DNA of 64,000 bases, from contig JANDJK010000003.1 in NCBI GenBank assembly GCA_024330925.1, positions 2,075 through 66,074 of the forward strand, written 5' to 3'. Both the position numbers and the translations under genes were made by a program. The notes under the pieces were generated by a model, which was not told where the DNA came from, did not search any database, and saw only the letters and a list, made by a program, of their open reading frames with translations. The DNA comes from Nitrospira sp. GTDB taxonomy: Bacteria; Nitrospirota; Nitrospiria; Nitrospirales; Nitrospiraceae. The first letter of the stretch is position 1. Each line of letters opens with the position of its first letter. Positions 54,896 through 63,638 of the stretch are shown here, one piece after another.

Positions 54896-55927
54896 CTACC
54901 CGCGGAAACTTCTTTCGTTTAGCTCCCGCTGGATGTTCCTCTTGTCTAGCAGCACGAGACACAGAAGACCGATACCAATCCACACCAACTCGCGAAAGCG
55001 CCGCAGCAGAGCAAACGTCAAGCCGGTGACCTCGCTGTAGCCAAATGTTTTCAACAGAAGCACGTTGCCTCCATCCTGCGCACCGAGGCTGCCAGGAATG
55101 AAAAACGAACCGCCCTTGATGAACACAGCGAGCGCCCCAATGGAAAACGCCGACAAGACAGTTGTTGGTCCCCCCAGGTAATGGAGAATCACAAAGACCT
55201 CCAACGCTTCTGCCATCCACCCGAGAAAATAGATACCGATCGAAGCATAAAACGCCCCTTGGCGGTGATGGTAAAATTGGAGAATCGTTCGGTCAATGGC
55301 TCGCAGATCCTCTTCCCGCGATTCCAGAAACGCCACGCGCAAACGAAGCGCCTTGGCCACAGCCAACATCGAGGCAAATAGCCCTCGGCGCTGCACAAAC
55401 ACGAACGCCCCAATGGAGCAGACTAAGAGTCCCACACTAAGCACCGCTGCTGTCACCGTGGATCCCCCCGAGCTGCCCGCACCGAGCAAAATGAATCCGA
55501 GAGCCATTCCCAGCAGGATGTAACCAACCTCAGCAATAGTCATGGTGGTCTTCGCAATCACCACCGAGGCGCCTCCCTCTTCAACCGGCACGCGATATTG
55601 TTTAAGAAGATAAGCTTTAAGCGGCTCGCCGCCCAAATAGGCCGTGGGGGTCGTCATATTCACAACCTCGCCAGCCATTCGAATGGTCAGAAGCCGCCAG
55701 AATGGTACCCCTCGTCCAGCGGGCCCCAGCACCACACGCCACCCATATGCTTCAACGACATACATCAGAACAGAAGGACACAACATCACAACGAGAGCGC
55801 CCGGCCCTAACCGAGCAGTGGTCTCGTAGATGTTCGTAGGACCGATGTGCCAAATAAGAAGACCGAGAACAGCAAGACCAAACGCCAGGAGGAAATAACG
55901 GACCACGTGAGATTCACACAGGACCAT
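54896..55927 (-). CDS. Lysylphosphatidylglycerol-synthase TM / UPF0104 flippase-like membrane protein
   Basis: About 8 TM segments; NMTTPTAYLGGEP, FFIPGSLGAQDGG, LLRRFRE; start may be GTG 55906. Confidence 0.85.
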   Translation of the reverse strand: MVLCESHVVRYFLLAFGLAVLGLLIWHIGPTNIYETTARLGPGALVVMLCPSVLMYVVEAYGWRVVLGPAGRGVPFWRLLTIRMAGEVVNMTTPTAYLGGEPLKAYLLKQYRVPVEEGGASVVIAKTTMTIAEVGYILLGMALGFILLGAGSSGGSTVTAAVLSVGLLVCSIGAFVFVQRRGLFASMLAVAKALRLRVAFLESREEDLRAIDRTILQFYHHRQGAFYASIGIYFLGWMAEALEVFVILHYLGGPTTVLSAFSIGALAVFIKGGSFFIPGSLGAQDGGNVLLLKTFGYSEVTGLTFALLRRFRELVWIGIGLLCLVLLDKRNIQRELNERSFRG

Positions 55928-57371
55928 TGGGCGGTGTCACGGCGGAGGGGCGAATCACCCATGCCATGACCGCGGCAAAGAGAAGGGACCCCACTGCCGC
56001 ACAGCTAAGAAACCAGTCCAGTTTGGCCAATATCGCAAACAACAGCAGCATTAGGGAGAAATCACGGCTAGCGACATTCTTGAGCATGAAATCCGCCCAT
56101 GCCGCGCCGGCCGCTGTTTTCCACCGATTTGCCGCCTTGATTTTTCGCGCCTGCTCCACCAGGAGAAACGATAACCCATTACCCAAGACGGTCACCCCTC
56201 CTAGCGCCAACCAGCCCCAGGCACCCGGTTCCCCCATTCGCACCGTATACAGGCCGATGGCAATGCCCGTAAAAATAGCCATATGCACCAGATTGTCGAG
56301 AAAAAGATCGAGCCAGGCGCCAAACGGCGATTCCGCGAATGTCAACCGCGCTACCTCCCCATCGCAACAATCGATCACGGCCGCCAATTGAAACAGCAAG
56401 GCCGCGACAACCCCGGCTGCATAGGTTCCTATTGAAAATCCCACTGCAGCCGTGAAGCCGATCAAGGAGGCAACCACCGTAATCACATTGGGGGACCATC
56501 CGGCCCTGAGAAAAAGCCGTGTGAACCATCGAGAGAGCTTCCGGTTGAAGTATCGATCCACAAATCCTTCAGCATCTGCCCTCAAAGAGTGGAACAGTTT
56601 GCGCTCAGCGAGCGGCAGATCAGATGGAACTGTGACCTCTTGGTACCATAACCCTTGTTTGTCGGTCGCCTCGACGACCCGAACGTTGCCGTCGCCCCCC
56701 ACCAGTTCCAGCCAACGACGGATCGGAAGCCGCCCTAGTTCCATGCCGCCATCTCTCGAAGCACTCGTCAACAGAGCTGCTGGTAACACCACCATAGCAG
56801 CCGCTAGGGGCGCGGTATGATCGCCAGGCGGGGGTGCCCAGGCGGTCAACCGCTTACCACAGACTTGCAACCGGACTCCACTTTTGACTGATCCCCGGTT
56901 CCCCATCGTCGACGATCGAGACAACGGCCGCGCCACAACAATCGCCTTGCCATGCCGAGATTCCCGCCTGAGGTGCTCGATCAGATGAGGCGAGAAAATG
57001 GCATTCGCGCTCAACAGCAGGACGCAATCGCCAACCTCGGCGCCCAAAAATTCCCATGTTCTCGGATCATCGAGGGGAAATTCTCGGATCGGCATCCATC
57101 GGACAGGAATCGACACACGCGGGCCGCTGCTTAAGGCCTGCTTCAAATGCTCCTCTTCGGGACCGGTCAACACAATCAGTTGGCGAATACCACCCCGCTG
57201 CAACGTCAGAACCGCTCGCTGAAACAGACTGATGCCCACCACCGACGCCAGAGGGTCAACCTCTCCCGGCCGAACAGTGATGGAATCACCCAGCAAATCA
57301 ACCGACGGAAAAAGCACAGCCGTTACCAAGCCCCGAATACCAATCCGTTTTTGCACCAGACTCTCGTTCAT
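55914..57371 (-). CDS. NTP-transferase-like domain fused to CDP-alcohol phosphotransferase
   Basis: C-terminal signature DCCDGEVAR-x8-G-x3-D-x3-D. DRYFNRKLS...SPNVIT as in DIPP-synthase-like enzymes. Degenerate N-terminal GT-A/NTP-transferase fold (VVGISLFQRAVLTLQRGGIRQLIV). Confidence 0.85.
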   Translation of the reverse strand: MNESLVQKRIGIRGLVTAVLFPSVDLLGDSITVRPGEVDPLASVVGISLFQRAVLTLQRGGIRQLIVLTGPEEEHLKQALSSGPRVSIPVRWMPIREFPLDDPRTWEFLGAEVGDCVLLLSANAIFSPHLIEHLRRESRHGKAIVVARPLSRSSTMGNRGSVKSGVRLQVCGKRLTAWAPPPGDHTAPLAAAMVVLPAALLTSASRDGGMELGRLPIRRWLELVGGDGNVRVVEATDKQGLWYQEVTVPSDLPLAERKLFHSLRADAEGFVDRYFNRKLSRWFTRLFLRAGWSPNVITVVASLIGFTAAVGFSIGTYAAGVVAALLFQLAAVIDCCDGEVARLTFAESPFGAWLDLFLDNLVHMAIFTGIAIGLYTVRMGEPGAWGWLALGGVTVLGNGLSFLLVEQARKIKAANRWKTAAGAAWADFMLKNVASRDFSLMLLLFAILAKLDWFLSCAAVGSLLFAAVMAWVIRPSAVTPPNGPV

Positions 57372-57423
57372 TGAATCACCAGGCCAGTCGGTCGTACTCT
57401 TGCAAGGTGATGGCCTTTCCCCT

Positions 57424-58143
57424 TCATAATTTGGGCAATACGTCGCGTTCGGCCTTTTTCACATCCTCCGGAAAATCGATCTCCGTCCAGGGCAACCCAC
57501 CGATCCGTTCATAGCCAACACGGACAGTTTGAAAAAAGGGGTGCAAGGCATCCTCGTATTCCATGCCCCAAGCCCCTTGATCAACAAACGACTGCAGGGC
57601 AGCAATCATATGAGGGGTATCGGCCCGGCGCACACGAAGAAACCCCACACCTTCCCCGGCTACATCGTACCGTTCGGGCAAACGTTTCGATAGAGCAATC
57701 ACTCGCTCACCCGCCACGGCTACCATACATTCTTCACCTGTCTGCACCACCGTTTCATCCATCAAGAGCGCGTTGGGATGAGACGATTCAACCAACCGCT
57801 TAAGAATCAGCCGGTGAAACAAGACATCGGCATCCATCACAATTACATCGTCATCCAGTGCCTCGCGGGCAACCCACAGCGAAGAGATACTGCCGCGATG
57901 GAACCCCTCGTTCACCAGAAAATTCACTGCGACGCCACAGTGATGCTGCCGAACCGCCTCACGGATCATCTCCTGCTTATATCCCACCACGATGTCGGCT
58001 CGCCTAATTCCGAGCCAGGCCAACGTCTCCAAAGAGCGATGCAGGAGCGAACGTCCCCCAAATTCGATTAAGCATTTGGGACGGTGTTGCGTGATGGGCC
58101 ACAACCGTTTGCCGACACCGGCCGCAAGGATGACGGCTTTCAT
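57424..58143 (-). CDS. Phosphocholine/phosphonate cytidylyltransferase (LicC/PntC family)
   Basis: MKAVILAAGVGKRL, RPKCL, MDADV, WTEIDFPED; ATGA-coupled to the transaminase. Confidence 0.9.
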   Translation of the reverse strand: MKAVILAAGVGKRLWPITQHRPKCLIEFGGRSLLHRSLETLAWLGIRRADIVVGYKQEMIREAVRQHHCGVAVNFLVNEGFHRGSISSLWVAREALDDDVIVMDADVLFHRLILKRLVESSHPNALLMDETVVQTGEECMVAVAGERVIALSKRLPERYDVAGEGVGFLRVRRADTPHMIAALQSFVDQGAWGMEYEDALHPFFQTVRVGYERIGGLPWTEIDFPEDVKKAERDVLPKL

Positions 58144-59222
58144 GCGCCTCCACACACGTGCTCGAAGGCATCAAGAAATCCGGTCACCTGTGTTTCGGTC
58201 AGCACGCCCATGTTCGCCACACGGAAAATCCGGTTCTCCAGGTTGCCCTGCCCAGCATAGATCACATACCCTTCAGCCTTCAGCCGATCATGCAGGGTCT
58301 GATAGGAGAGGCCTTCTGGAAGATAGTACGCCGTGATCGTGTTCGACCGATGGTCCGGCGGGAGCACTGGCTTGACACCCAGCTTGGCCATGCGTTCGCG
58401 AATCAGAGCTGCCATTCGCTTATAACGCCGAATCCGGTTGGCCACCCCCTCTTCCAACAGTTCACTTAACGCCTCATCGAAGGCATAATACACCTGAACC
58501 GCGGGTGTAAACGGGATCGTTCCCCTCCCTTCCTCGTCAATGTAGTGGGTCAGATGAAGATACCACGAACGTTTGGGATACGACCTCATTCGCTCGACGA
58601 ACCCTTTGCGCACCAGCACAAACGACACACCAGGAAACCCCTGAATACACTTTCCCGCCGTGCCTGCCACCATGTAAATATGAGACCCGGCGATATCGAG
58701 GTCTTCACCAGCCAGGGCACTGACGGCGTCAAGGACAAAGACGCGGTTTTGATCGTCAACCACCTTAGCGATCTCCCGAACGGGATTGATCAACCCCGTC
58801 GTCGTTTCATGATGAACCATAGCAACGGCGTGCACCTCCTGGTGTTGCCGTAGTGCCAGCAACAGTTTGTCGGGGTCTGGTCGTTCTGTCCATCCATACT
58901 TCAACTCACTTACGCCTAACCGGTGGAGTCCCACAATCTGAGACATCCGTGCTCCATAGACACCATTGTTGATGATGAGCGCACGGCGGCCATGCGGCAG
59001 CGACGACATGAGAGCAGCCTCGACAGCGGCTGTTCCCGACCCCGTGATAACGACCGCAACATAGTCTGATTCCGCTCCCGGCACGAACGCCGCCAGCAGC
59101 TTGCGCTGAATACGGTGCAATAACTCCGTAAATTCCGATTCGCGATGACAGATATCAGGGCGCAACAGAGCCTGTCGCACCCGCTCGCTCACATTGACCG
59201 GCCCTGGATTGAGAAGAATCAT
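58140..59222 (-). CDS. 2-aminoethylphosphonate aminotransferase (PhnW/AepZ-like, class V PLP)
   Basis: LLNPGP, GSGTAAVE, NGVYGAR, HHETTTG..NP, TAGKCIQGFPG (PLP Lys), FTPAVQ, YVIYAGQ..FRVANMG. Confidence 0.9.
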   Translation of the reverse strand: MILLNPGPVNVSERVRQALLRPDICHRESEFTELLHRIQRKLLAAFVPGAESDYVAVVITGSGTAAVEAALMSSLPHGRRALIINNGVYGARMSQIVGLHRLGVSELKYGWTERPDPDKLLLALRQHQEVHAVAMVHHETTTGLINPVREIAKVVDDQNRVFVLDAVSALAGEDLDIAGSHIYMVAGTAGKCIQGFPGVSFVLVRKGFVERMRSYPKRSWYLHLTHYIDEEGRGTIPFTPAVQVYYAFDEALSELLEEGVANRIRRYKRMAALIRERMAKLGVKPVLPPDHRSNTITAYYLPEGLSYQTLHDRLKAEGYVIYAGQGNLENRIFRVANMGVLTETQVTGFLDAFEHVCGGA

Positions 59223-59318
59223 CCTCCTCCGTCGGCTTGCCCAGCTCGCGCAATTCACAGAGCGTCCGCCCCAGCCGCTTTCCTCCTCGTCAGGTGAGGC
59301 TCCCGCTCTTGCGATTCC

Positions 59319-59897
59319 TCATGCAATAGCGTGCATGAACCGTTTCGTCAGCTCCGGCGGATCAAGAGCTATCCGCTCCGCCTCTTCCTGAAACTCGTTG
59401 ACCTTGACCAATAACATGCTGGGACCGTTCTTGTTGAGCAGCTCTCGGAATTCGTAGACCATATCGTCTCGATCGAGCACCCGCACCGTATTGACGTAAC
59501 CCGCCGCCCTCGCCACTTGCTCCAGGGGAACCACATTGGAGATTGTCGGTTGATTGCCAGTGGAGCCATACACTTCATTATCAAAGACAACATGAATGAA
59601 ATTGCTGGGTTTCAACGCCCCCACCGTCGCCAACGTCCCCATCCCCATTAAGACATTGCCATCCCCATCAAACGTCACAACCTGTTTGTGCGGCTTGGCC
59701 AACGCCACTCCCAACGCAATGGCCGACGCATTACCCATGGACCCTATCATGTAAAAATGTGTGGGGCGATCAGCAATTTTCTGCACCTCACGTGCTGGAA
59801 AACCGTTGCAGACGATGAGGGGCTGATCCGTCAACAGCTCTAGCAACGCTTCGATAGCCTGCGCCCGGCTGACTAAGGTACCTTCCTCTGGCCTCAT
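59319..59897 (-). CDS. Phosphonopyruvate decarboxylase, beta (TPP-binding) subunit
   Basis: FYMIGSMG, DGDGNVLMGMG (GDG motif), DNEVYGSTGNQPT. Confidence 0.85.
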   Translation of the reverse strand: MRPEEGTLVSRAQAIEALLELLTDQPLIVCNGFPAREVQKIADRPTHFYMIGSMGNASAIALGVALAKPHKQVVTFDGDGNVLMGMGTLATVGALKPSNFIHVVFDNEVYGSTGNQPTISNVVPLEQVARAAGYVNTVRVLDRDDMVYEFRELLNKNGPSMLLVKVNEFQEEAERIALDPPELTKRFMHAIA

Positions 59898-60004
59898 GGC
59901 AACTTACCTCGTCCCTTCATCCCTACTGGACTGCTCTGCTTTACTGTTATTCGGCAATTGATGTGGTCCACGAGCATCTCCTCGGCTGAAAGGACCATCT
60001 TGCG

Positions 60005-60502
60005 TTACGGATGCAAGCCTTTGACCACACCCTTCGTAATGAGAAGAGCCACTGGTGTCAGTCTTGTCCGATAGGTGTCGGTCACCCACGCCAAGTCTTC
60101 CCGCATCGTGGCCTCTGTGAGCAAGCGGTGCGGAATGTTCACCGTATCCAGAAGACGGGGGAGCACTTCTCCCATGATGAGATGCTCCGGCGCATCTTTG
60201 CCCTCATACCCTCGCCATGACACAATTAAAATACAGGGCTGACGGTAAATCATGTTTAGTGACAACAGGGTATTAAGCGACGTTCCCAATCCCGAATTCT
60301 GCATGAGGACCGCCGGCATCTTTCCCCCCATATAGGCTCCGGCTGCCATTGCCACCGCCTCGTCCTCCCGCACGGCAGGAACGTACAGGCGCCGATTCAT
60401 TAATTCAGCAATGATGCCCCCGAGTATAGAATCGGGCACGCCCGTGAAAAAATTCACCCCTCTCTCTTGAAGCGACTGGACAAACACGTCGCTCTCGATC
60501 AT
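60005..60502 (-). CDS. Phosphonopyruvate decarboxylase, alpha subunit
   Basis: FFTGVPDS, REDEAVAMAAG, MQNSGLG, SWRGYEGKDAPEH..MG. Confidence 0.85.
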   Translation of the reverse strand: MIESDVFVQSLQERGVNFFTGVPDSILGGIIAELMNRRLYVPAVREDEAVAMAAGAYMGGKMPAVLMQNSGLGTSLNTLLSLNMIYRQPCILIVSWRGYEGKDAPEHLIMGEVLPRLLDTVNIPHRLLTEATMREDLAWVTDTYRTRLTPVALLITKGVVKGLHP

Positions 60503-60567
60503 CTCCCCTCCTCCATACTGGCCGTGGGCTCTGCCCCGTTCTCACATTCCGCAAGGACAAATGGCGC

Positions 60568-60596
60568 ATTATAGGCCAGCGCACCACCATTCTCAA
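60568..60596 (-). promoter_or_regulatory. Putative sigma70 promoter of the phosphonate operon
   Basis: TTGAGA-17-TATAAT; SD GGAGGAGG before ATG 60502. Confidence 0.65.
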
Positions 60597-60675
60597 GAAA
60601 CCGTCCCCGCCAAGGACCCCATTGCACCAACCCAGTGCCCGTGATAGGGTTTGCCCCCTGTCATAGGAGGGTAGC

Positions 60676-61251
60676 GTGCTGTTTTTCGTGGCGACTATGA
60701 GACAGGGATTTTCACATCGGCGAGAGAAGCCCCCCTTTTCGCTCGTGGTGGTTGGATGGGTCACCGCCTGGATCGCCTGGCTCACCGTTCTTGAACCTCT
60801 GGCAGCCGTTTCCATGCTCAATGACCCCGGTGGCTTCCACGGTATTCGCTGGGGGAGTCCGCTTTCATCCAGGAATGACCTCGAGTTACTGCGAGCTAGC
60901 AGTCACATCACGGAATATCGTTCCAAAACGGGCGACACCACGTTTGCTGGAGCCGAAATGACCAGCATTTCGTTCGTGGCATTGAACGATCAGTTCGCCC
61001 GGGTGACCATTCGATACGAAGGAGAGGCGATCCACAAGCAAGTGTTGAATTTCCTTGAATCCCATTATGGGGCTCTCCAGAGAATTCCAGGACAGATGAC
61101 GCGAGGGCTGAACCAGCAATACACTTGGCGTGGGCCAGACACTGAAATCTCGCTGACCTACCAAGCCAACACACAACGGGGATTCATCTTTATCGACAGT
61201 CGGACCCTGGCACCCCGGTTCAACGATGACTTAACCGATTCGGCCGAATGA
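60676..61251 (+). CDS. Exported hypothetical protein
   Basis: SD AGGAGG before GTG; hydrophobic N-terminal segment; FHGIRWG...YTWRGPDTEI. Confidence 0.75.
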   Translation: MLFFVATMRQGFSHRREKPPFSLVVVGWVTAWIAWLTVLEPLAAVSMLNDPGGFHGIRWGSPLSSRNDLELLRASSHITEYRSKTGDTTFAGAEMTSISFVALNDQFARVTIRYEGEAIHKQVLNFLESHYGALQRIPGQMTRGLNQQYTWRGPDTEISLTYQANTQRGFIFIDSRTLAPRFNDDLTDSAE

Positions 61252-61356
61252 CGTGCGACTCTTCCTTTCTTCCTTCCCCCTGTTCCTCAACCAAAGGGCA
61301 TGACAATGGCCAATCAACCGACCTCTCGATGACGCAGCCCGTGCGCAAACTTTTGA

Positions 61357-61386
61357 TTGACATCTCGCCCATGGCTTTCGCATCAT
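61357..61386 (+). promoter_or_regulatory. Possible promoter giving a leaderless pepM transcript
   Basis: TTGACA-18-CATCAT; predicted start site coincides with ATG 61394; no SD present. Confidence 0.3.
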
Positions 61387-63070
61387 GGCGGCCATGACCA
61401 ATGCTCAGAAACTTCGAGCCGCCCTCAAACGACCTGGCGCCTTGAAAATCGTGGGTGCCCACGACGCGCTCAGTGCCCGCCTCATCGAGCAAGCCGGCTT
61501 CGACGGCATTTGGGTCAGTGGGTTCGCTGTCTCGGCGGCGCTGAAATGTGTCCCCGACGCCAGTTTCATCGACTCCAGTGAACAACTCGCCGTCGAACGG
61601 AACATCGTCGAAGCGGTCAACATTCCCGTCATCTCTGACTGCGACACTGGCTACGGCAACGCCTTGAACGTGATGCGCACCGTCAACGACCGCGAGCGCG
61701 CTGGTGTTGCCGGTATCTGCCTCGAAGACAATGTGTACCCAAAACGATGCAGCTTCTACGCCGGTGTACGCCGAGAATTGATTCCCATTAACGAGCACTG
61801 CGGCAAGATCAGAGCGGCCAAGGCTGCCCAGATGTCTCCCGATTTTCTGATCATTGCAAGGACCGAGGCCTTGATTGCGGGGTGGGGACAAGAAGAAGCA
61901 CTGAAACGAGCGGAGGCCTATGCCGAAGCAGGTGCTGATGCGGTGCTGATCCATTCAAAGTCCAAAAACTTCGACGAGCTACGGGCTGTCTATCGAGCGT
62001 GGTCTGGTCGGGTTCCACTCGTTGTCGTACCTACAATTTTCGATCAAACCACAGCAGCGGAGATGGAAGAGGCCGGTGCCAAGATCATCATCTACGCCAA
62101 CCAACCGGTGCGGGCAGCGATCCGCGCCATGCGGGAGGCGCTTCGTCGCATCAAAGAAGACACGCGCCCTGGAGCCGCCAATGATTTAATTGTCCCACTT
62201 CAGGATGTCTATGACCTAGTCGGCGTTTCAGAGATGGAACGTCATGAACGGGAATTCCTCCCCGTGGGTGGAGAAAAGATCACCGCCGTGATTGCCGCAG
62301 CGGGATTTGAAAAACAGTTGCTGCCCCTCATCGAAGATAAACCCAAGTGCCTGCTCGACATCAAGGGCAAAACCATTCTTGACCGACAGGTAGCGGCACT
62401 GAATGCCTGCAACATCAAGGACATCGCCCTGATACGGGGATATAAGAAAGAAGCCATTACCCTCCCCCATATCCGCTACTATGACAACGACTGCTACGAA
62501 ACCACAGGCGAGCTCTTTTCCCTGTTCTGTGCCGAAAATGAATTGAACGGACGAATCATTGTCCTCTATGGCGATATCATCTTTGACACTGCCATCCTGG
62601 AGAAGCTGCTCAAGAGCCCAGCCGACATTGCCATCGTCGTGGATCTAGCCTGGTTTGACCAGAGCCAACACCATGCGCCAGTACCCCATCTGAATCCTGA
62701 TTTAGTCTCCCTTGCCGAGCTGCCAGACCGAAGCTATCTGTCACGGTTCATGGTCTCCGAGGGAGACCACCGCGTTGTCAAGATCGGCCGACACATCCCC
62801 CCCAGCAACGCCCACGGTGAATTCATCGGCATGGCCATGTTCTCCGAAAAGGGCACCCAAGCACTGCGCGACTGTTACCGGGCAGCCCAGGCACGACCTC
62901 TCCCTCACGGCTTCCACGAGGCGCCGAGCCTTGCGACCGCCTCTCTGACCGATATGATTCAAGAACTGATCGATCAAGGCCATCAAGTTCACGCCGTCCC
63001 AATCTTCAAAGGATGGATGGAGGTCGATTCGTTCGAAGAATACCAGAAAGCCTGGGCCAAGATTCGATAG
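61385..63070 (+). CDS. PEP mutase-family domain fused to C-terminal cytidylyltransferase-like domain
   Basis: GAHDALSA, WVSG, D58, D85xD87 (SDCDTGYG), E114, K120, R159 (IART), H190 (LIHS). C-terminal KPKCLLDIKG...YGDIIF...WMEVD. Located in an AEP gene context. Confidence 0.85.
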   Translation: MAAMTNAQKLRAALKRPGALKIVGAHDALSARLIEQAGFDGIWVSGFAVSAALKCVPDASFIDSSEQLAVERNIVEAVNIPVISDCDTGYGNALNVMRTVNDRERAGVAGICLEDNVYPKRCSFYAGVRRELIPINEHCGKIRAAKAAQMSPDFLIIARTEALIAGWGQEEALKRAEAYAEAGADAVLIHSKSKNFDELRAVYRAWSGRVPLVVVPTIFDQTTAAEMEEAGAKIIIYANQPVRAAIRAMREALRRIKEDTRPGAANDLIVPLQDVYDLVGVSEMERHEREFLPVGGEKITAVIAAAGFEKQLLPLIEDKPKCLLDIKGKTILDRQVAALNACNIKDIALIRGYKKEAITLPHIRYYDNDCYETTGELFSLFCAENELNGRIIVLYGDIIFDTAILEKLLKSPADIAIVVDLAWFDQSQHHAPVPHLNPDLVSLAELPDRSYLSRFMVSEGDHRVVKIGRHIPPSNAHGEFIGMAMFSEKGTQALRDCYRAAQARPLPHGFHEAPSLATASLTDMIQELIDQGHQVHAVPIFKGWMEVDSFEEYQKAWAKIR

Positions 63071-63230: not shown

Positions 63231-63638
63231 ATGAGGCAATCCCTGAACAGCCGGGCGCTCAAACCCTCCATGCGAAAAGACAAACGGCTTGCGGAGCGGA
63301 TCACCTACACCTGCGCCGTCTCCTTCACTGGAGAGATTCCTTCTCAACCCCATCAAGGGACAGGACTAACCCAGAACATCTCCATCACCGGACTGAAAAT
63401 CATAAGTCATTCTCCAGTCACCCGCGGCACGCTTCTGACGATTTCGCTAGCTCTGCCAGATGGTCAACCGCCGCTGACGATCTATTCAGCCCATGTTGTG
63501 TGGGTCTCCGGCGCCCATTTCTCCGTGCGCTTCCTACGCCTGCACCGAGATCAGCGGAAGCGGATCCTGTCTTTTGTGTTGAAGCACATCGGTAAAGCAG
63601 CAATGAACGATTCCTGGTCTCGCTTCACACTCATGTAA
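63231..63638 (+). CDS. Single-domain PilZ protein
   Basis: RLAER (RxxxR), NISITG (NxSxxG), AHVVWV...VRF. Confidence 0.8.
   Translation: MRQSLNSRALKPSMRKDKRLAERITYTCAVSFTGEIPSQPHQGTGLTQNISITGLKIISHSPVTRGTLLTISLALPDGQPPLTIYSAHVVWVSGAHFSVRFLRLHRDQRKRILSFVLKHIGKAAMNDSWSRFTLM

What the first reader, a model, noticed from the sequence alone, without database searches (positions are those of the whole stretch)
54896..63070. Complete AEP synthesis, CMP-activation, transfer and flipping cluster: candidate bacterial phosphonolipid pathway
Seen: PEP-mutase fusion, split decarboxylase, class V transaminase, LicC/PntC-type cytidylyltransferase, CDP-alcohol phosphotransferase fusion and an LPG-synthase-TM/UPF0104 membrane protein, with a near-consensus promoter and closely packed genes. 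Known: PepM, Ppd and AEP transaminase make AEP from PEP, and PntC-type enzymes make CMP-AEP. Inference: CMP-AEP is transferred to a lipid or polyol alcohol and the product is translocated. That would give a C-P head-group membrane lipid in a Nitrospira-like nitrifier. I see no glycosyltransferase or NRPS genes, which argues against a phosphonoglycan or antibiotic within this window.
Basis: partly seen in the sequence, partly recalled or inferred. Interest (0 to 1): 0.78.

Follow-up and report, generated by a model that had tools for sequence, protein, structure and literature searches.

The report
Aminoethylphosphonate lipid head-group operon, Nitrospira
A hot-spring Nitrospira carries a gene set, shared by most of its family, that should make the carbon-phosphorus compound 2-aminoethylphosphonate, activate it with CMP and attach it to a membrane lipid. 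This cluster type has been predicted before, but its product has never been seen, and here its first enzyme lacks the motif normally used to recognise it.

Summary
In detail: all seven genes are present as described.
- PepM is divergently transcribed.
- A conserved gene lies in the 880-bp gap.
- The CDP-alcohol transferase has an IPCT/DIPPS-type fold with a degenerate nucleotidyltransferase domain.
- The PepM loop reads EDNVYPKRCS, not EDKx5NS.

The six-gene operon keeps its order across Nitrospiraceae. The transferase was found in 104 of 121 genomes and in other Nitrospirales.

Genomes that lack the variant PepM carry a canonical PepM elsewhere; only one has both. The variant loop occurs in at least five other phyla, usually directly beside Ppd, so it most likely is a working mutase that motif filters miss.

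Module by module (30-42% identity), the locus matches the published but uncharacterised 'Group 1 phosphonolipid / Burkholderiales_CDP-OH' cluster. There the flippase-like gene is HpnL, and in Mycetohabitans and Roseomonas the module lies beside or within hopanoid genes.

An inositol-phosphate acceptor is unlikely, because MIPS was found in only 2 of 61 genomes.

The product is probably an AEP-headed membrane lipid. Diacylglycerol is slightly favoured over a hopanoid polyol as acceptor, because 0 of 163 Nitrospirales loci are hopanoid-linked.

The scan has met this cluster type before on other DNA (16 notes, at least 15 genomes). I class it as a new variant of a known kind, of moderate interest.

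The parts
61385..63070 (+). PEP mutase-type domain (residues 1-295) fused to an NTP_transf_3 nucleotidyltransferase-like domain (about 299-561) with a divergent signature (GFEKQ...PK). Divergently transcribed from the operon.
   Evidence: Pfam PEP_mutase E 2e-59 and NTP_transf_3 E 3e-9. TIGR02320 scores 275 bits, under its 319.55 cut-off. Best solved relatives are PepM 5UNC (E 8e-82), PPH 2DUA and PepM 1M1B. PepM-only residues are kept. Signature.
61724..61753 (+). Gating loop E114-D-N-V-Y-P-K-R-C122-S, in place of the canonical EDKx5NS.
   Evidence: Conserved in family orthologues, while the 35%-identical paralogue has EDKLFPKTNS. The same loop gives at least 120 hits in the GTDB species genomes across several phyla.
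60676..61251 (+). Conserved gene of unknown function upstream of PepM: an N-terminal hydrophobic segment followed by about 140 aa, with no Pfam match. Whether it belongs to the pathway is unknown.
   Evidence: tblastx 71-91% identity to the same position in L020 and L024; duplicated in L021 and L022. Translation. No Pfam match.
60568..60596 (-). Sigma-70-like promoter TTGAGA-17-TATAAT upstream of Ppd alpha.
   Evidence: 11 of 12 matches. This is a consensus match only, not tested.
60005..60502 (-). Phosphonopyruvate decarboxylase, alpha (N-terminal TPP) subunit.
   Evidence: TPP_enzyme_N. TIGR03297 positions 1-156, 128 bits; sulfopyruvate decarboxylase alpha 113 bits.
59319..59897 (-). Phosphonopyruvate decarboxylase, beta (C-terminal TPP) subunit.
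   Evidence: TPP_enzyme_C. TIGR03297 positions 169-358, 176 bits; sulfopyruvate decarboxylase beta 189 bits.
58140..59258 (-). 2-aminoethylphosphonate:pyruvate transaminase (AepZ/PhnW type).
   Evidence: TIGR03301 342.5 bits, full length, cut-off 360.8. 40-42% identical to the Burkholderiales cluster AEPT.
57424..58155 (-). PntC-like AEP cytidylyltransferase. It is the only NTase domain in the locus with an intact GxGxR-x8-PK signature, and it overlaps the transaminase gene by 16 nt.
   Evidence: Best solved relative is T. denticola PntC-AEPT 6PD1 (E 7e-17 over residues 6-242), then LicC at 3e-11. Signature.
55914..57371 (-). IPCT/DIPPS-type two-domain membrane enzyme: a degenerate NTase-like domain (about 1-250) plus a CDP-alcohol phosphotransferase with six transmembrane helices.
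   Evidence: PF01066 E 3e-10; intact catalytic motif. AlphaFold2 model pLDDT 79.8; the top Foldseek hit is 4MND (E 4e-17, TM 0.74). N-domain conserved but without the signature.
54896..55927 (-). HpnL-like LPG_synthase_TM (flippase-like) membrane protein, overlapping the transferase gene by 14 nt.
   Evidence: PF03706 E 5e-35. TIGR03476 HpnL 156.7 bits (cut-off 195.65) against 62 bits for the generic TIGR00374. It is the best HpnL-like gene in the genome.

Best explanation
The locus makes a membrane lipid with a 2-aminoethylphosphonate (AEP) head group.

Steps:
1. The PepM-type enzyme, with its non-canonical loop, converts PEP to phosphonopyruvate.
2. The split Ppd pulls that unfavourable reaction forward by decarboxylating phosphonopyruvate to phosphonoacetaldehyde.
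3. The class-V transaminase makes AEP.
4. The PntC-like nucleotidyltransferase makes CMP-AEP from CTP.
5. The IPCT/DIPPS-type CDP-alcohol phosphotransferase moves the aminoethylphosphonyl group from CMP-AEP to the free hydroxyl of a membrane lipid and releases CMP.
6. The HpnL-like LPG_synthase_TM protein moves the product to the outer leaflet.

Basis: steps 1-4 rest on homology and conserved synteny. Steps 5 and 6 are inferred.

The acceptor is not determined. My ranking for Nitrospira is diacylglycerol about 0.4 (a phosphono analogue of phosphatidylethanolamine, which is the published prediction), a C35 hopanoid polyol about 0.3, and something else about 0.3.

The two NTase-like domains with divergent signatures, fused to PepM and to the transferase, are probably nucleotide-binding or docking modules. 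Their role is unknown.
For: Domain assignments.

Conservation:
- Gene order PpdA-PpdB-AEPT-NTase-transferase-HpnL-like is kept in all six family loci examined and in other Nitrospirales.
- The transferase was found in 104 of 121 family genomes.

PepM function:
- 70 of 121 genomes have the variant next to the operon, 34 have a canonical PepM elsewhere, and only G044 has both.
- The five genomes with the operon but no PepM found are all at most 81% complete. Thirteen genomes lack both.
- The variant shares PepM-only residues H26, W43, E161, H190, V215-P-T and A238-N, and all the metal and substrate ligands.
- The same loop in Planctomycetota, Myxococcota, Binatota, Acidobacteriota and Actinomycetota lies directly beside PpdA-PpdB in 26 of 48 loci outside Nitrospirota.

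Lipid product:
- Relatives include CDP-OH + LPG_synthase_TM fusion proteins (P0268; an Atlas cluster of 76 members).
- The transferase and HpnL-like genes overlap by 14 nt.

Not inositol: MIPS was not found in this genome and was found in 2 of 61 family genomes at least 95% complete. In both it lies beside a separate IPCT/DIPPS-like gene.

Same module elsewhere:
- The Mycetohabitans/Burkholderia 'Group 1' cluster has the same domains at 30-42% identity.
- Its CDP-OH, HpnL and PntC proteins hit only the operon genes in this genome.
Against: - No product of this cluster type has been identified in any organism (PMC8942020).
- PepM fails the EDKx5NS motif and the TIGR02320 cut-off. In canonical PepM the residue at position 122 is Asn, which I recall (my own knowledge of mutagenesis work on Mytilus PepM) to matter for catalysis.
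- The transferase's nearest named families (DIPPS, AIPS, PIPS) all use a soluble polyol phosphate as acceptor, not a lipid.
- HMM scores cannot separate Ppd from sulfopyruvate decarboxylase.
- No RNA or protein evidence could be obtained for this MAG.
- The genome already has psd, pssA and pgsA, so the lipid would be an accessory one.
Confidence: 0.62

Rival explanations
1. This is a refinement of the best explanation rather than a true rival. The acceptor is a C35 bacteriohopanepolyol, so the product is an AEP-hopanoid that the HpnL-like protein flips.
For: - In Mycetohabitans the cluster's LPG-synthase protein is HpnL proper (TIGR03476, 329.8 bits against a 195.65 cut-off). It lies beside HpnN, dxs and ispH, and shc is 13 kb away.
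- In Roseomonas marmotae the module sits between a polyprenyl synthetase and ispH-hpnH-hpnG-shc-hpnE.
- Published speculation covers Roseomonas (PMC8776678) and Nitrosococcus (PMC7285500, PMC8942020).
- HpnL is hopanoid-associated and its function is unknown (PMC12324291, PMC12583986).
- This genome has shc, HpnH and an HpnG-like gene. shc was found in 115 of 121 family genomes.
- The operon's gene is the best HpnL-like protein in the genome.
Against: - None of 163 Nitrospirales operon loci (flanks of up to 9-10 kb, less at contig ends) carries shc, hpnH, hpnG or hpnN. Only a polyprenyl synthetase is nearby, in 28 of them.
- The Nitrospira protein scores below the HpnL cut-off.
- Of five non-Nitrospira genomes with a PepM + CDP-OH cluster, only two have a real shc. 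One of the three without a real shc has a 3-Mb contig, which I read as near complete.
- No phosphonate-bearing hopanoid has been reported in the papers I read.
Confidence: 0.28
2. The product is a small soluble phosphonate ester, analogous to di-myo-inositol phosphate. CMP-AEP is joined to a soluble polyol or polyol phosphate, and the LPG_synthase_TM protein exports it or is unrelated.
For: - The fold and the nearest named families are IPCT/DIPPS, AIPS and PIPS.
- The window comes from a hot spring, and DIP-type solutes are typical of thermophiles (my own knowledge).
Against: - MIPS was found in only 2 of 61 complete family genomes.
- The operon was found in most Nitrospiraceae sampled (104 of 121 genomes) and in other Nitrospirales, a group that is mostly not thermophilic by my own knowledge.
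- The tightly coupled flippase-like gene, and its fusion to CDP-OH domains in relatives, point to a lipid.
Confidence: 0.1
3. AEP ends up on a glycan, lipopolysaccharide or protein rather than as a bulk-lipid head group. It gets there either directly or through a lipid-linked intermediate that donates AEP in the periplasm.
For: - Most characterised bacterial AEP is on glycans (PMC6697681).
- In family genomes with the canonical PepM, that gene sits with Ppd beside polysaccharide-export genes.
Against: - No glycosyltransferase or LicD-type gene lies in or beside the operon in the window, and none stood out in the other family loci I looked at.
- I know of no CDP-OH family enzyme that decorates glycans (my own knowledge).
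Confidence: 0.1
4. The PepM-like protein is not a mutase, so the operon does not make a phosphonate. The decarboxylase and transaminase would then act on another 2-oxo acid, for example sulfopyruvate, giving a taurine-like amine.
For: - The loop keeps the K-R-C of the lyase branch of the superfamily.
- The protein scores below the TIGR02320 cut-off.
- The decarboxylase subunits score about equally on the sulfopyruvate decarboxylase models.
Against: - Outside the loop, every PepM-specific residue is kept and the lyase-specific ones are not.
- There is near-perfect mutual exclusion with canonical PepM in a family that keeps the rest of the operon.
- The transaminase and NTase match AEP-specific enzymes best.
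- The operon holds no gene that would make sulfopyruvate.
Confidence: 0.07

Closest known systems
'Group 1 phosphonolipid' cluster (Yu et al. 2013), also called the 'Burkholderiales_CDP-OH' gene-cluster family (Li & Horsman 2022, PMC8942020). The same cluster is drawn for lichen Nostoc and Burkholderia with an 'hpnL' gene in PMC5987646.
   Same: The gene content is the same: PepM fused to an NTase domain, Ppd, AEP transaminase, a second PntC-type NTase, a CDP-alcohol phosphotransferase and an LPG-synthase/HpnL membrane protein. Every domain matches at 30-42% identity, and the proteobacterial proteins hit only the operon genes in this genome. The product is uncharacterised in both.
   Different: - There is no 2OG-Fe(II) oxygenase here, so the head group should be AEP rather than 1-hydroxy-AEP.
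- Ppd is split in two.
- The transferase carries an extra 250-aa NTase-like domain (485 aa against 231 aa).
- The PepM loop is EDNVYPKRCS instead of EDKQFPKTNS.
- PepM is divergently transcribed.
- The flippase-like protein scores below the HpnL cut-off.
Phosphonyl-tailoring (Pnt) pathway of Treponema denticola, Atopobium rimae and Olsenella uli (Rice et al. 2019, PMC6697681; PntC-AEPT structure 6PD1)
   Same: The route is Ppm, Ppd, AEPT and a LicC-like cytidylyltransferase that makes CMP-AEP. The stand-alone NTase aligns with Tde-PntC over its whole length and keeps the Arg and Lys of GxG(T/S)R-x4-8-PK. NTase and transaminase are translationally coupled here and fused in T. denticola.
   Different: In those organisms the downstream partners are LicD-type or glycosyltransferases, so the target is a glycan. 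Here they are a CDP-alcohol phosphotransferase and a flippase-like protein.
Archaeoglobus fulgidus IPCT/DIPPS (4MND) and AF2299 (4O6M)
   Same: The two-domain architecture is the same: a cytoplasmic NTase-fold domain sitting on a six-helix CDP-alcohol phosphotransferase. It is the best fold match (E 4e-17, TM 0.74). The catalytic Asp motif is intact.
   Different: - The N-domain lacks the GxGxR...PK signature.
- The protein scores 87 bits against a cut-off of 580 on NF041135.
- The genome has no inositol-1-phosphate synthase.
- The active NTase is a separate, PntC-like protein.
Hopanoid-phosphonate hybrid loci of Roseomonas (PMC8776678) and Nitrosococcus (PMC7285500)
   Same: The phosphonate module is the same: PntC, aepX, aepY, an LPG-synthase-domain protein, AEPT and CDP-OH.
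   Different: There the module lies inside the hpn/shc locus. In Nitrospirales it is never next to hopanoid genes (0 of 163 loci).
Eukaryotic Kennedy-type ethanolamine/choline phosphotransferases, which accept CMP-AEP to make phosphonolipids in ciliates (my own knowledge, not tested here)
   Same: They belong to the same enzyme superfamily, and the proposed chemistry is the same: CMP-AEP + diacylglycerol gives a phosphonolipid + CMP.
   Different: They are only distantly related, have no NTase-like domain and have no flippase partner.

Membership tests
Group 1 phosphonolipid / Burkholderiales_CDP-OH gene cluster family | Ppm fused to an NTase domain, plus Ppd, plus AEP transaminase | tested here: met
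   The parts are 34-42% identical to those in Mycetohabitans and B. cenocepacia. Ppd is split here.
Group 1 phosphonolipid / Burkholderiales_CDP-OH gene cluster family | A second, stand-alone PntC-type cytidylyltransferase | tested here: met
   P0003 is 33% identical to the cluster PntC, and that PntC's best hit in this genome is P0003's gene, far ahead of one weak second hit.
Group 1 phosphonolipid / Burkholderiales_CDP-OH gene cluster family | Two 'phospholipid' genes: a CDP-alcohol phosphatidyltransferase and an LPG-synthase-domain (HpnL) protein | tested here: met
   Both are present. They are 31% and 30% identical to the Mycetohabitans proteins, which hit only these genes in the genome. 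The transferase has an extra N-terminal domain.
Group 1 phosphonolipid / Burkholderiales_CDP-OH gene cluster family | A 2-oxoglutarate/Fe(II) oxygenase in the seven-gene core | tested here: not met
   No such ORF lies between 54896 and 63638, and none was seen in the six family loci.
PEP mutase (Ppm/PepM) | The EDKX5NS motif, as used by Yu 2013, Rice 2019, Li & Horsman 2022 and PMC12723261 | tested here: not met
   The loop is EDNVYPKRCS, and it is conserved across the clade.
PEP mutase (Ppm/PepM) | NCBIfam TIGR02320 equivalog cut-off of 319.55 bits | tested here: not met
   275.1 bits. It is still the best-scoring model, ahead of PPH at 263 bits and MICL at 201 bits.
PEP mutase (Ppm/PepM) | Active-site residues D58, D85, D87, E114, K120, R159 and H190, plus the residues that separate PepM from the lyases | tested here: met
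   Alignment to 1M1B and 5UNC and the site table. Only positions 47, 116, 121, 122 and 125 differ.
PEP mutase (Ppm/PepM) | Genomic coupling to phosphonopyruvate decarboxylase | tested here: met
   It is adjacent to Ppd in the window and in 26 of 48 loci outside Nitrospirota that have the same loop. It is mutually exclusive with canonical PepM within the family.
PEP mutase (Ppm/PepM) | Catalysis of PEP <-> phosphonopyruvate | not testable with these tools
   This needs an enzyme assay.
PntC (phosphonate-specific cytidylyltransferase) | The GXG(T/S)R-X4-8-PK signature, with the Arg and Lys shown to be essential in Tde-PntC | tested here: met
   P0003 reads G-V-G-K-R-x8-P-K, with the W-x-E-I-D metal region aligned. 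The third signature position is K rather than T/S.
PntC (phosphonate-specific cytidylyltransferase) | Preference for AEP over phosphocholine | not testable with these tools
   There is only context (it overlaps the AEP transaminase gene) and a best PDB hit to 6PD1.
IPCT/DIPPS (NF041135) | Two-domain NTase + CDP-OH fold with an intact CDP-OH Asp motif | tested here: met
   Foldseek hit to 4MND at E 4e-17. Motif.
IPCT/DIPPS (NF041135) | A catalytic NTase signature in the N-domain, and the equivalog score cut-off of 580 bits | tested here: not met
   No GxGxR...PK signature. 87.1 bits.
IPCT/DIPPS (NF041135) | A supply of inositol-1-phosphate (MIPS) in the genome | tested here: not met
   PF01658 was not found in this genome, which is 90.6% complete. 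It was found in 2 of 61 family genomes.
HpnL (TIGR03476) | Subfamily score cut-off of 195.65 bits | tested here: not met
   156.7 bits. The Mycetohabitans cluster protein scores 329.8 bits.
HpnL (TIGR03476) | Location in or beside the hopanoid (shc/hpn) locus | tested here: not met
   shc lies on another contig. None of 163 Nitrospirales operon loci has an hpn gene within the flanks held (up to 9-10 kb).
Phosphonopyruvate decarboxylase (TIGR03297) | Equivalog cut-off of 312.5 bits, and distinction from sulfopyruvate decarboxylase | tested here: inconclusive
   The two halves score 128.1 + 176 bits. The ComD/ComE models score 113 and 189 bits, also under their cut-offs.

The most novel reading that the evidence does not exclude
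The product is a lipid class never observed: a bacteriohopanepolyol esterified with 2-aminoethylphosphonate. The IPCT/DIPPS-type transferase would make it and the HpnL-like protein would flip it. That would give HpnL, a long-orphan hopanoid gene, a function. It would also give the main nitrite oxidisers a diagnostic phosphorus-bearing hopanoid.
Probability: 0.28. Interest if true: 0.85.

Novelty: new variant of a known kind. Interest (0 to 1): 0.52.

Why it matters
Nitrospira are the dominant nitrite oxidisers in soils, fresh water and wastewater plants, and their polar lipids are barely described in the papers I could read.

- A near-universal operon for a C-P lipid head group would add an unrecognised phosphonate source in nitrifying systems.
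- It would also be a possible biomarker, and a membrane trait resistant to phospholipases and phosphatases.
- Because cultured Nitrospira exist, the never-identified product of the 'Group 1' cluster type becomes directly testable.
- The PepM here fails the EDKx5NS filter that censuses of phosphonate biosynthesis still used in 2025. The same loop occurs in at least five further phyla next to Ppd, so those censuses probably undercount producers.

Tried and rejected
- Inositol-phosphate (DIP-type) chemistry: rejected, because MIPS is missing.
- Searching P0001 against plasmids: only weak Streptomyces and Nonomuraea hits.
- Context look-ups of distant IPCT/DIPPS-like representatives (P0156, P0157, P0177, P0184): no phosphonate genes, so these are a different subfamily.
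- The listing of cluster members: returned no organism names.
- The search for homologous proteins with the canonical PepM: returned only Nitrospira and so was useless for the tree. Canonical sequences were taken from plasmid records instead.
- Co-occurrence of the operon with shc within the family: uninformative, because shc is nearly universal there.
- RNA evidence: only DNA runs from the hot-spring metagenome hold the sequence.
- Yu et al. 2013 could not be read.
- Whether the variant loop is ancestral to canonical PepM: unresolved. The deep nodes are weak (87/35 to 92/91) and the tree tool flagged long branches.
- The roles of the two NTase-like domains with divergent signatures remain unexplained.

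Full report
**Anatomy**

A minus-strand operon runs from 60502 down to 54896:
- Ppd alpha, 60005-60502
- Ppd beta, 59319-59897
- an AepZ/PhnW-type transaminase, 58140-59258 (TIGR03301, 342.5 bits, just under the 360.8 cut-off)
- a 243-aa nucleotidyltransferase, 57424-58155
- a 485-aa CDP-OH_P_transf protein, 55914-57371
- an LPG_synthase_TM protein, 54896-55927

The last two pairs of genes overlap by 16 and 14 nt. A TTGAGA-17-TATAAT site precedes Ppd alpha.

The PEP_mutase + NTP_transf_3 fusion (61385-63070) lies on the other strand. The 880-bp gap between the two units is not empty. ORF 60676-61251 (+) is conserved at 71-91% by tblastx in relatives and is duplicated in some. It has a hydrophobic N-terminus and no Pfam match.

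The flanks are CstA, Hsp20, DUF520, a BNR protein and a PilZ protein. The cluster is therefore compact and has no glycosyltransferase next to it.

**Organism and conservation**

Homologues of the 485-aa protein are nearly all labelled Nitrospira or Nitrospiraceae. The source is a hot-spring metagenome.

The six-gene order is kept in all six family loci I fetched. The transferase matched in 106 of 121 family genomes; two of those matches are too weak to be the orthologue, which leaves 104. The same operon is present in other Nitrospirales with genomes of 2.1-4.7 Mb.

**The first enzyme**

The PepM domain is closest to solved PEP mutases: 5UNC at E 8e-82 and 1M1B at 3e-63. PPH follows at 3e-70, and methylisocitrate lyases are far behind at about 1e-35. 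Its gating loop, however, is EDNVYPKRCS rather than EDKx5NS. This is not an error, because family orthologues at 74-88% identity carry the same loop.

Within the family there are two PepM types.
- The variant sits next to the operon in 70 genomes.
- A 35-37% identical canonical PepM-NTase fusion (EDKLFPKTNS) lies elsewhere in 34 genomes.
- Only one genome has both.

My tally:

| Operon | PepM (either type) | Genomes | Note |
|---|---|---|---|
| found | found | 99 | |
| found | not found | 5 | all at most 81% complete |
| not found | found | 4 | fragmented genomes |
| not found | not found | 13 | includes 100%-complete genomes |

In a Nitrospira defluvii-like genome, the canonical gene sits with a single-chain Ppd beside polysaccharide-export genes.

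By my own estimate, less than one match is expected by chance. Forty-eight of the 80 loci returned lie outside Nitrospirota: Planctomycetota, Sorangium/Byssovorax/Minicystis, Binatia, Acidobacteriota, Frankiales and Acidimicrobiales. In 26 of those 48, PpdA-PpdB follow directly, often with AEPT and an NTase.

A site table shows that the variant keeps every residue separating PepM from the lyase branch (H26, W43, E161, H190, V215-P-T, A238-N). It differs only at positions 47, 116, 121, 122 and 125.

In a 52-row ML tree, canonical PepMs form one clade (100/100). The variant rows fill the rest of the PepM-type radiation. Deep nodes are weak, so which loop came first is open.

The field still defines PepM by a perfect EDKx5NS match (PMC6697681, PMC8942020, PMC12723261). 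I conclude, at about 0.8, that this is a working PEP mutase of a type that those filters miss.

**Activation**

Only the stand-alone NTase has the GxGxR-x8-PK signature. Its best solved relative is T. denticola PntC-AEPT over its full length (E 7e-17), followed by LicC.

The NTase domain fused to PepM reads GFEKQ...PK. The one in the canonical paralogue reads SRGQE...PK, and the one in Mycetohabitans (the Burkholderiales example) reads SRGRG...PK. This divergence is therefore a property of the fused domains in general. Their role is unknown.

**Transfer**

The 485-aa protein keeps the complete CDP-alcohol phosphotransferase motif. An AlphaFold2 model (pLDDT 79.8) matches the A. fulgidus IPCT/DIPPS structure best (E 4e-17, TM 0.74), and AF2299 next. 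Its N-domain is conserved but lacks the NTase signature.

It is not a DIP synthase, for three reasons:
- It scores 87 bits against a cut-off of 580.
- MIPS was not found in this genome.
- MIPS was found in only 2 of 61 family genomes at least 95% complete, and in those two it lies beside a separate IPCT/DIPPS-like gene.

A lipid product is favoured by the translationally coupled LPG_synthase_TM gene. It is also favoured by relatives in which CDP-OH and LPG_synthase_TM are fused into one protein (P0268; an Atlas cluster of 76).

**Comparison with the known cluster type**

Li & Horsman describe a seven-gene 'Burkholderiales_CDP-OH' core, which is Yu's Group 1 phosphonolipids. Its product has never been characterised. 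PMC5987646 draws the same cluster for Nostoc and Burkholderia, including an 'hpnL' gene.

I fetched the cluster from Mycetohabitans rhizoxinica and B. cenocepacia. Every window domain has a counterpart at 30-42% identity. The proteobacterial CDP-OH and HpnL proteins hit only the operon genes in this genome, and the PntC proteins hit the operon's NTase gene far above one weak second match.

Differences here:
- no oxygenase
- a split Ppd
- the extra N-domain on the transferase
- the variant PepM loop

**The hopanoid question**

The Mycetohabitans LPG-synthase protein is HpnL proper (329.8 bits). It lies beside HpnN, dxs and ispH, with shc 13 kb away. In Roseomonas marmotae the module sits inside the hpn/shc locus, a link others have noted in passing (PMC8776678, PMC7285500). 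HpnL's function is unknown (PMC12324291, PMC12583986).

This genome has shc, HpnH and an HpnG-like gene, and the operon's gene is its best HpnL-like protein.

Against a hopanoid acceptor in Nitrospira:
- None of 163 Nitrospirales operon loci has an hpn gene within the flanks held, which reach up to 9-10 kb.
- Only 2 of 5 other genomes with a PepM + CDP-OH cluster have a real shc.

I therefore rank diacylglycerol slightly above a hopanoid polyol as acceptor.

**Earlier notes of this scan**

Sixteen notes in at least 15 genomes describe the same cluster type, often inside hopanoid loci and sometimes with an atypical PepM. I read them only after my own analysis, and they agree with it.

**Verdict**

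The reading is right in its logic, but this is not a new kind of system. It is a Nitrospirales-wide variant of a known, uncharacterised cluster type.

Noticed in passing
window 61724-61753; loci L187-L266: PepM-type proteins with the loop EDN[VI][YF]PKRC[ST] are widespread. They occur in Planctomycetota, Myxococcota (including Sorangium cellulosum So ce56), Binatota, Acidobacteriota and Actinomycetota, usually directly followed by Ppd. All published censuses I read filter on EDKx5NS and would drop them.
   Followed up: partly
window 60676-61251 (+): A conserved gene of unknown function lies between the divergent promoters. It has a hydrophobic N-terminus and no Pfam match, and it is tandemly duplicated in some family genomes (L021, L022).
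   Followed up: partly
window 63231-63638 (+); L015, L016, L019:5303-5755: PilZ-domain genes recur beside the phosphonate genes. One lies downstream of PepM here, several paralogues lie upstream of the operon in relatives, and one lies next to the canonical PepM-Ppd pair in L019.
   Followed up: no
L019:3862-9705: In Nitrospira that lack the variant PepM, the canonical PepM-NTase fusion sits with a single-chain Ppd next to two polysaccharide-export (Poly_export/SLBB) genes. This may be a second, glycan-directed phosphonate pathway.
   Followed up: partly
G027:C37:13436-15273; G117:C118:4069-5918: Two family genomes carry an additional IPCT/DIPPS-like gene next to inositol-1-phosphate synthase. 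This is probably a genuine inositol-phosphate pathway, separate from the phosphonate operon.
   Followed up: no
P0002:299-330; L019; L307:9971-11665: The NTP_transf_3 domain fused to PepM lacks the canonical GxGxR in the variant, in canonical Nitrospira and in the Mycetohabitans protein (GFEKQ, SRGQE, SRGRG), while keeping the PK. Its activity has never been tested in the papers I read.
   Followed up: partly
L190, L203, L207, L221, L225, L266: Myxococcota loci with the variant PepM show PepM-NTase, PpdA, PpdB and an NTase in the stretch held, but no AEP transaminase there. This suggests a different phosphonate head group.
   Followed up: no
L107-L138 (28 of 163 operon loci): In the small-genome Nitrospirales clade, a polyprenyl synthetase gene lies convergently about 1.3 kb downstream of the HpnL-like gene. 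Roseomonas also has a polyprenyl synthetase beside its module.
   Followed up: partly
P0268; Atlas cluster: Single proteins that fuse a CDP-alcohol phosphotransferase to an LPG_synthase_TM domain exist, commonest in Acidobacteriota. I did not examine their genomic context.
   Followed up: no
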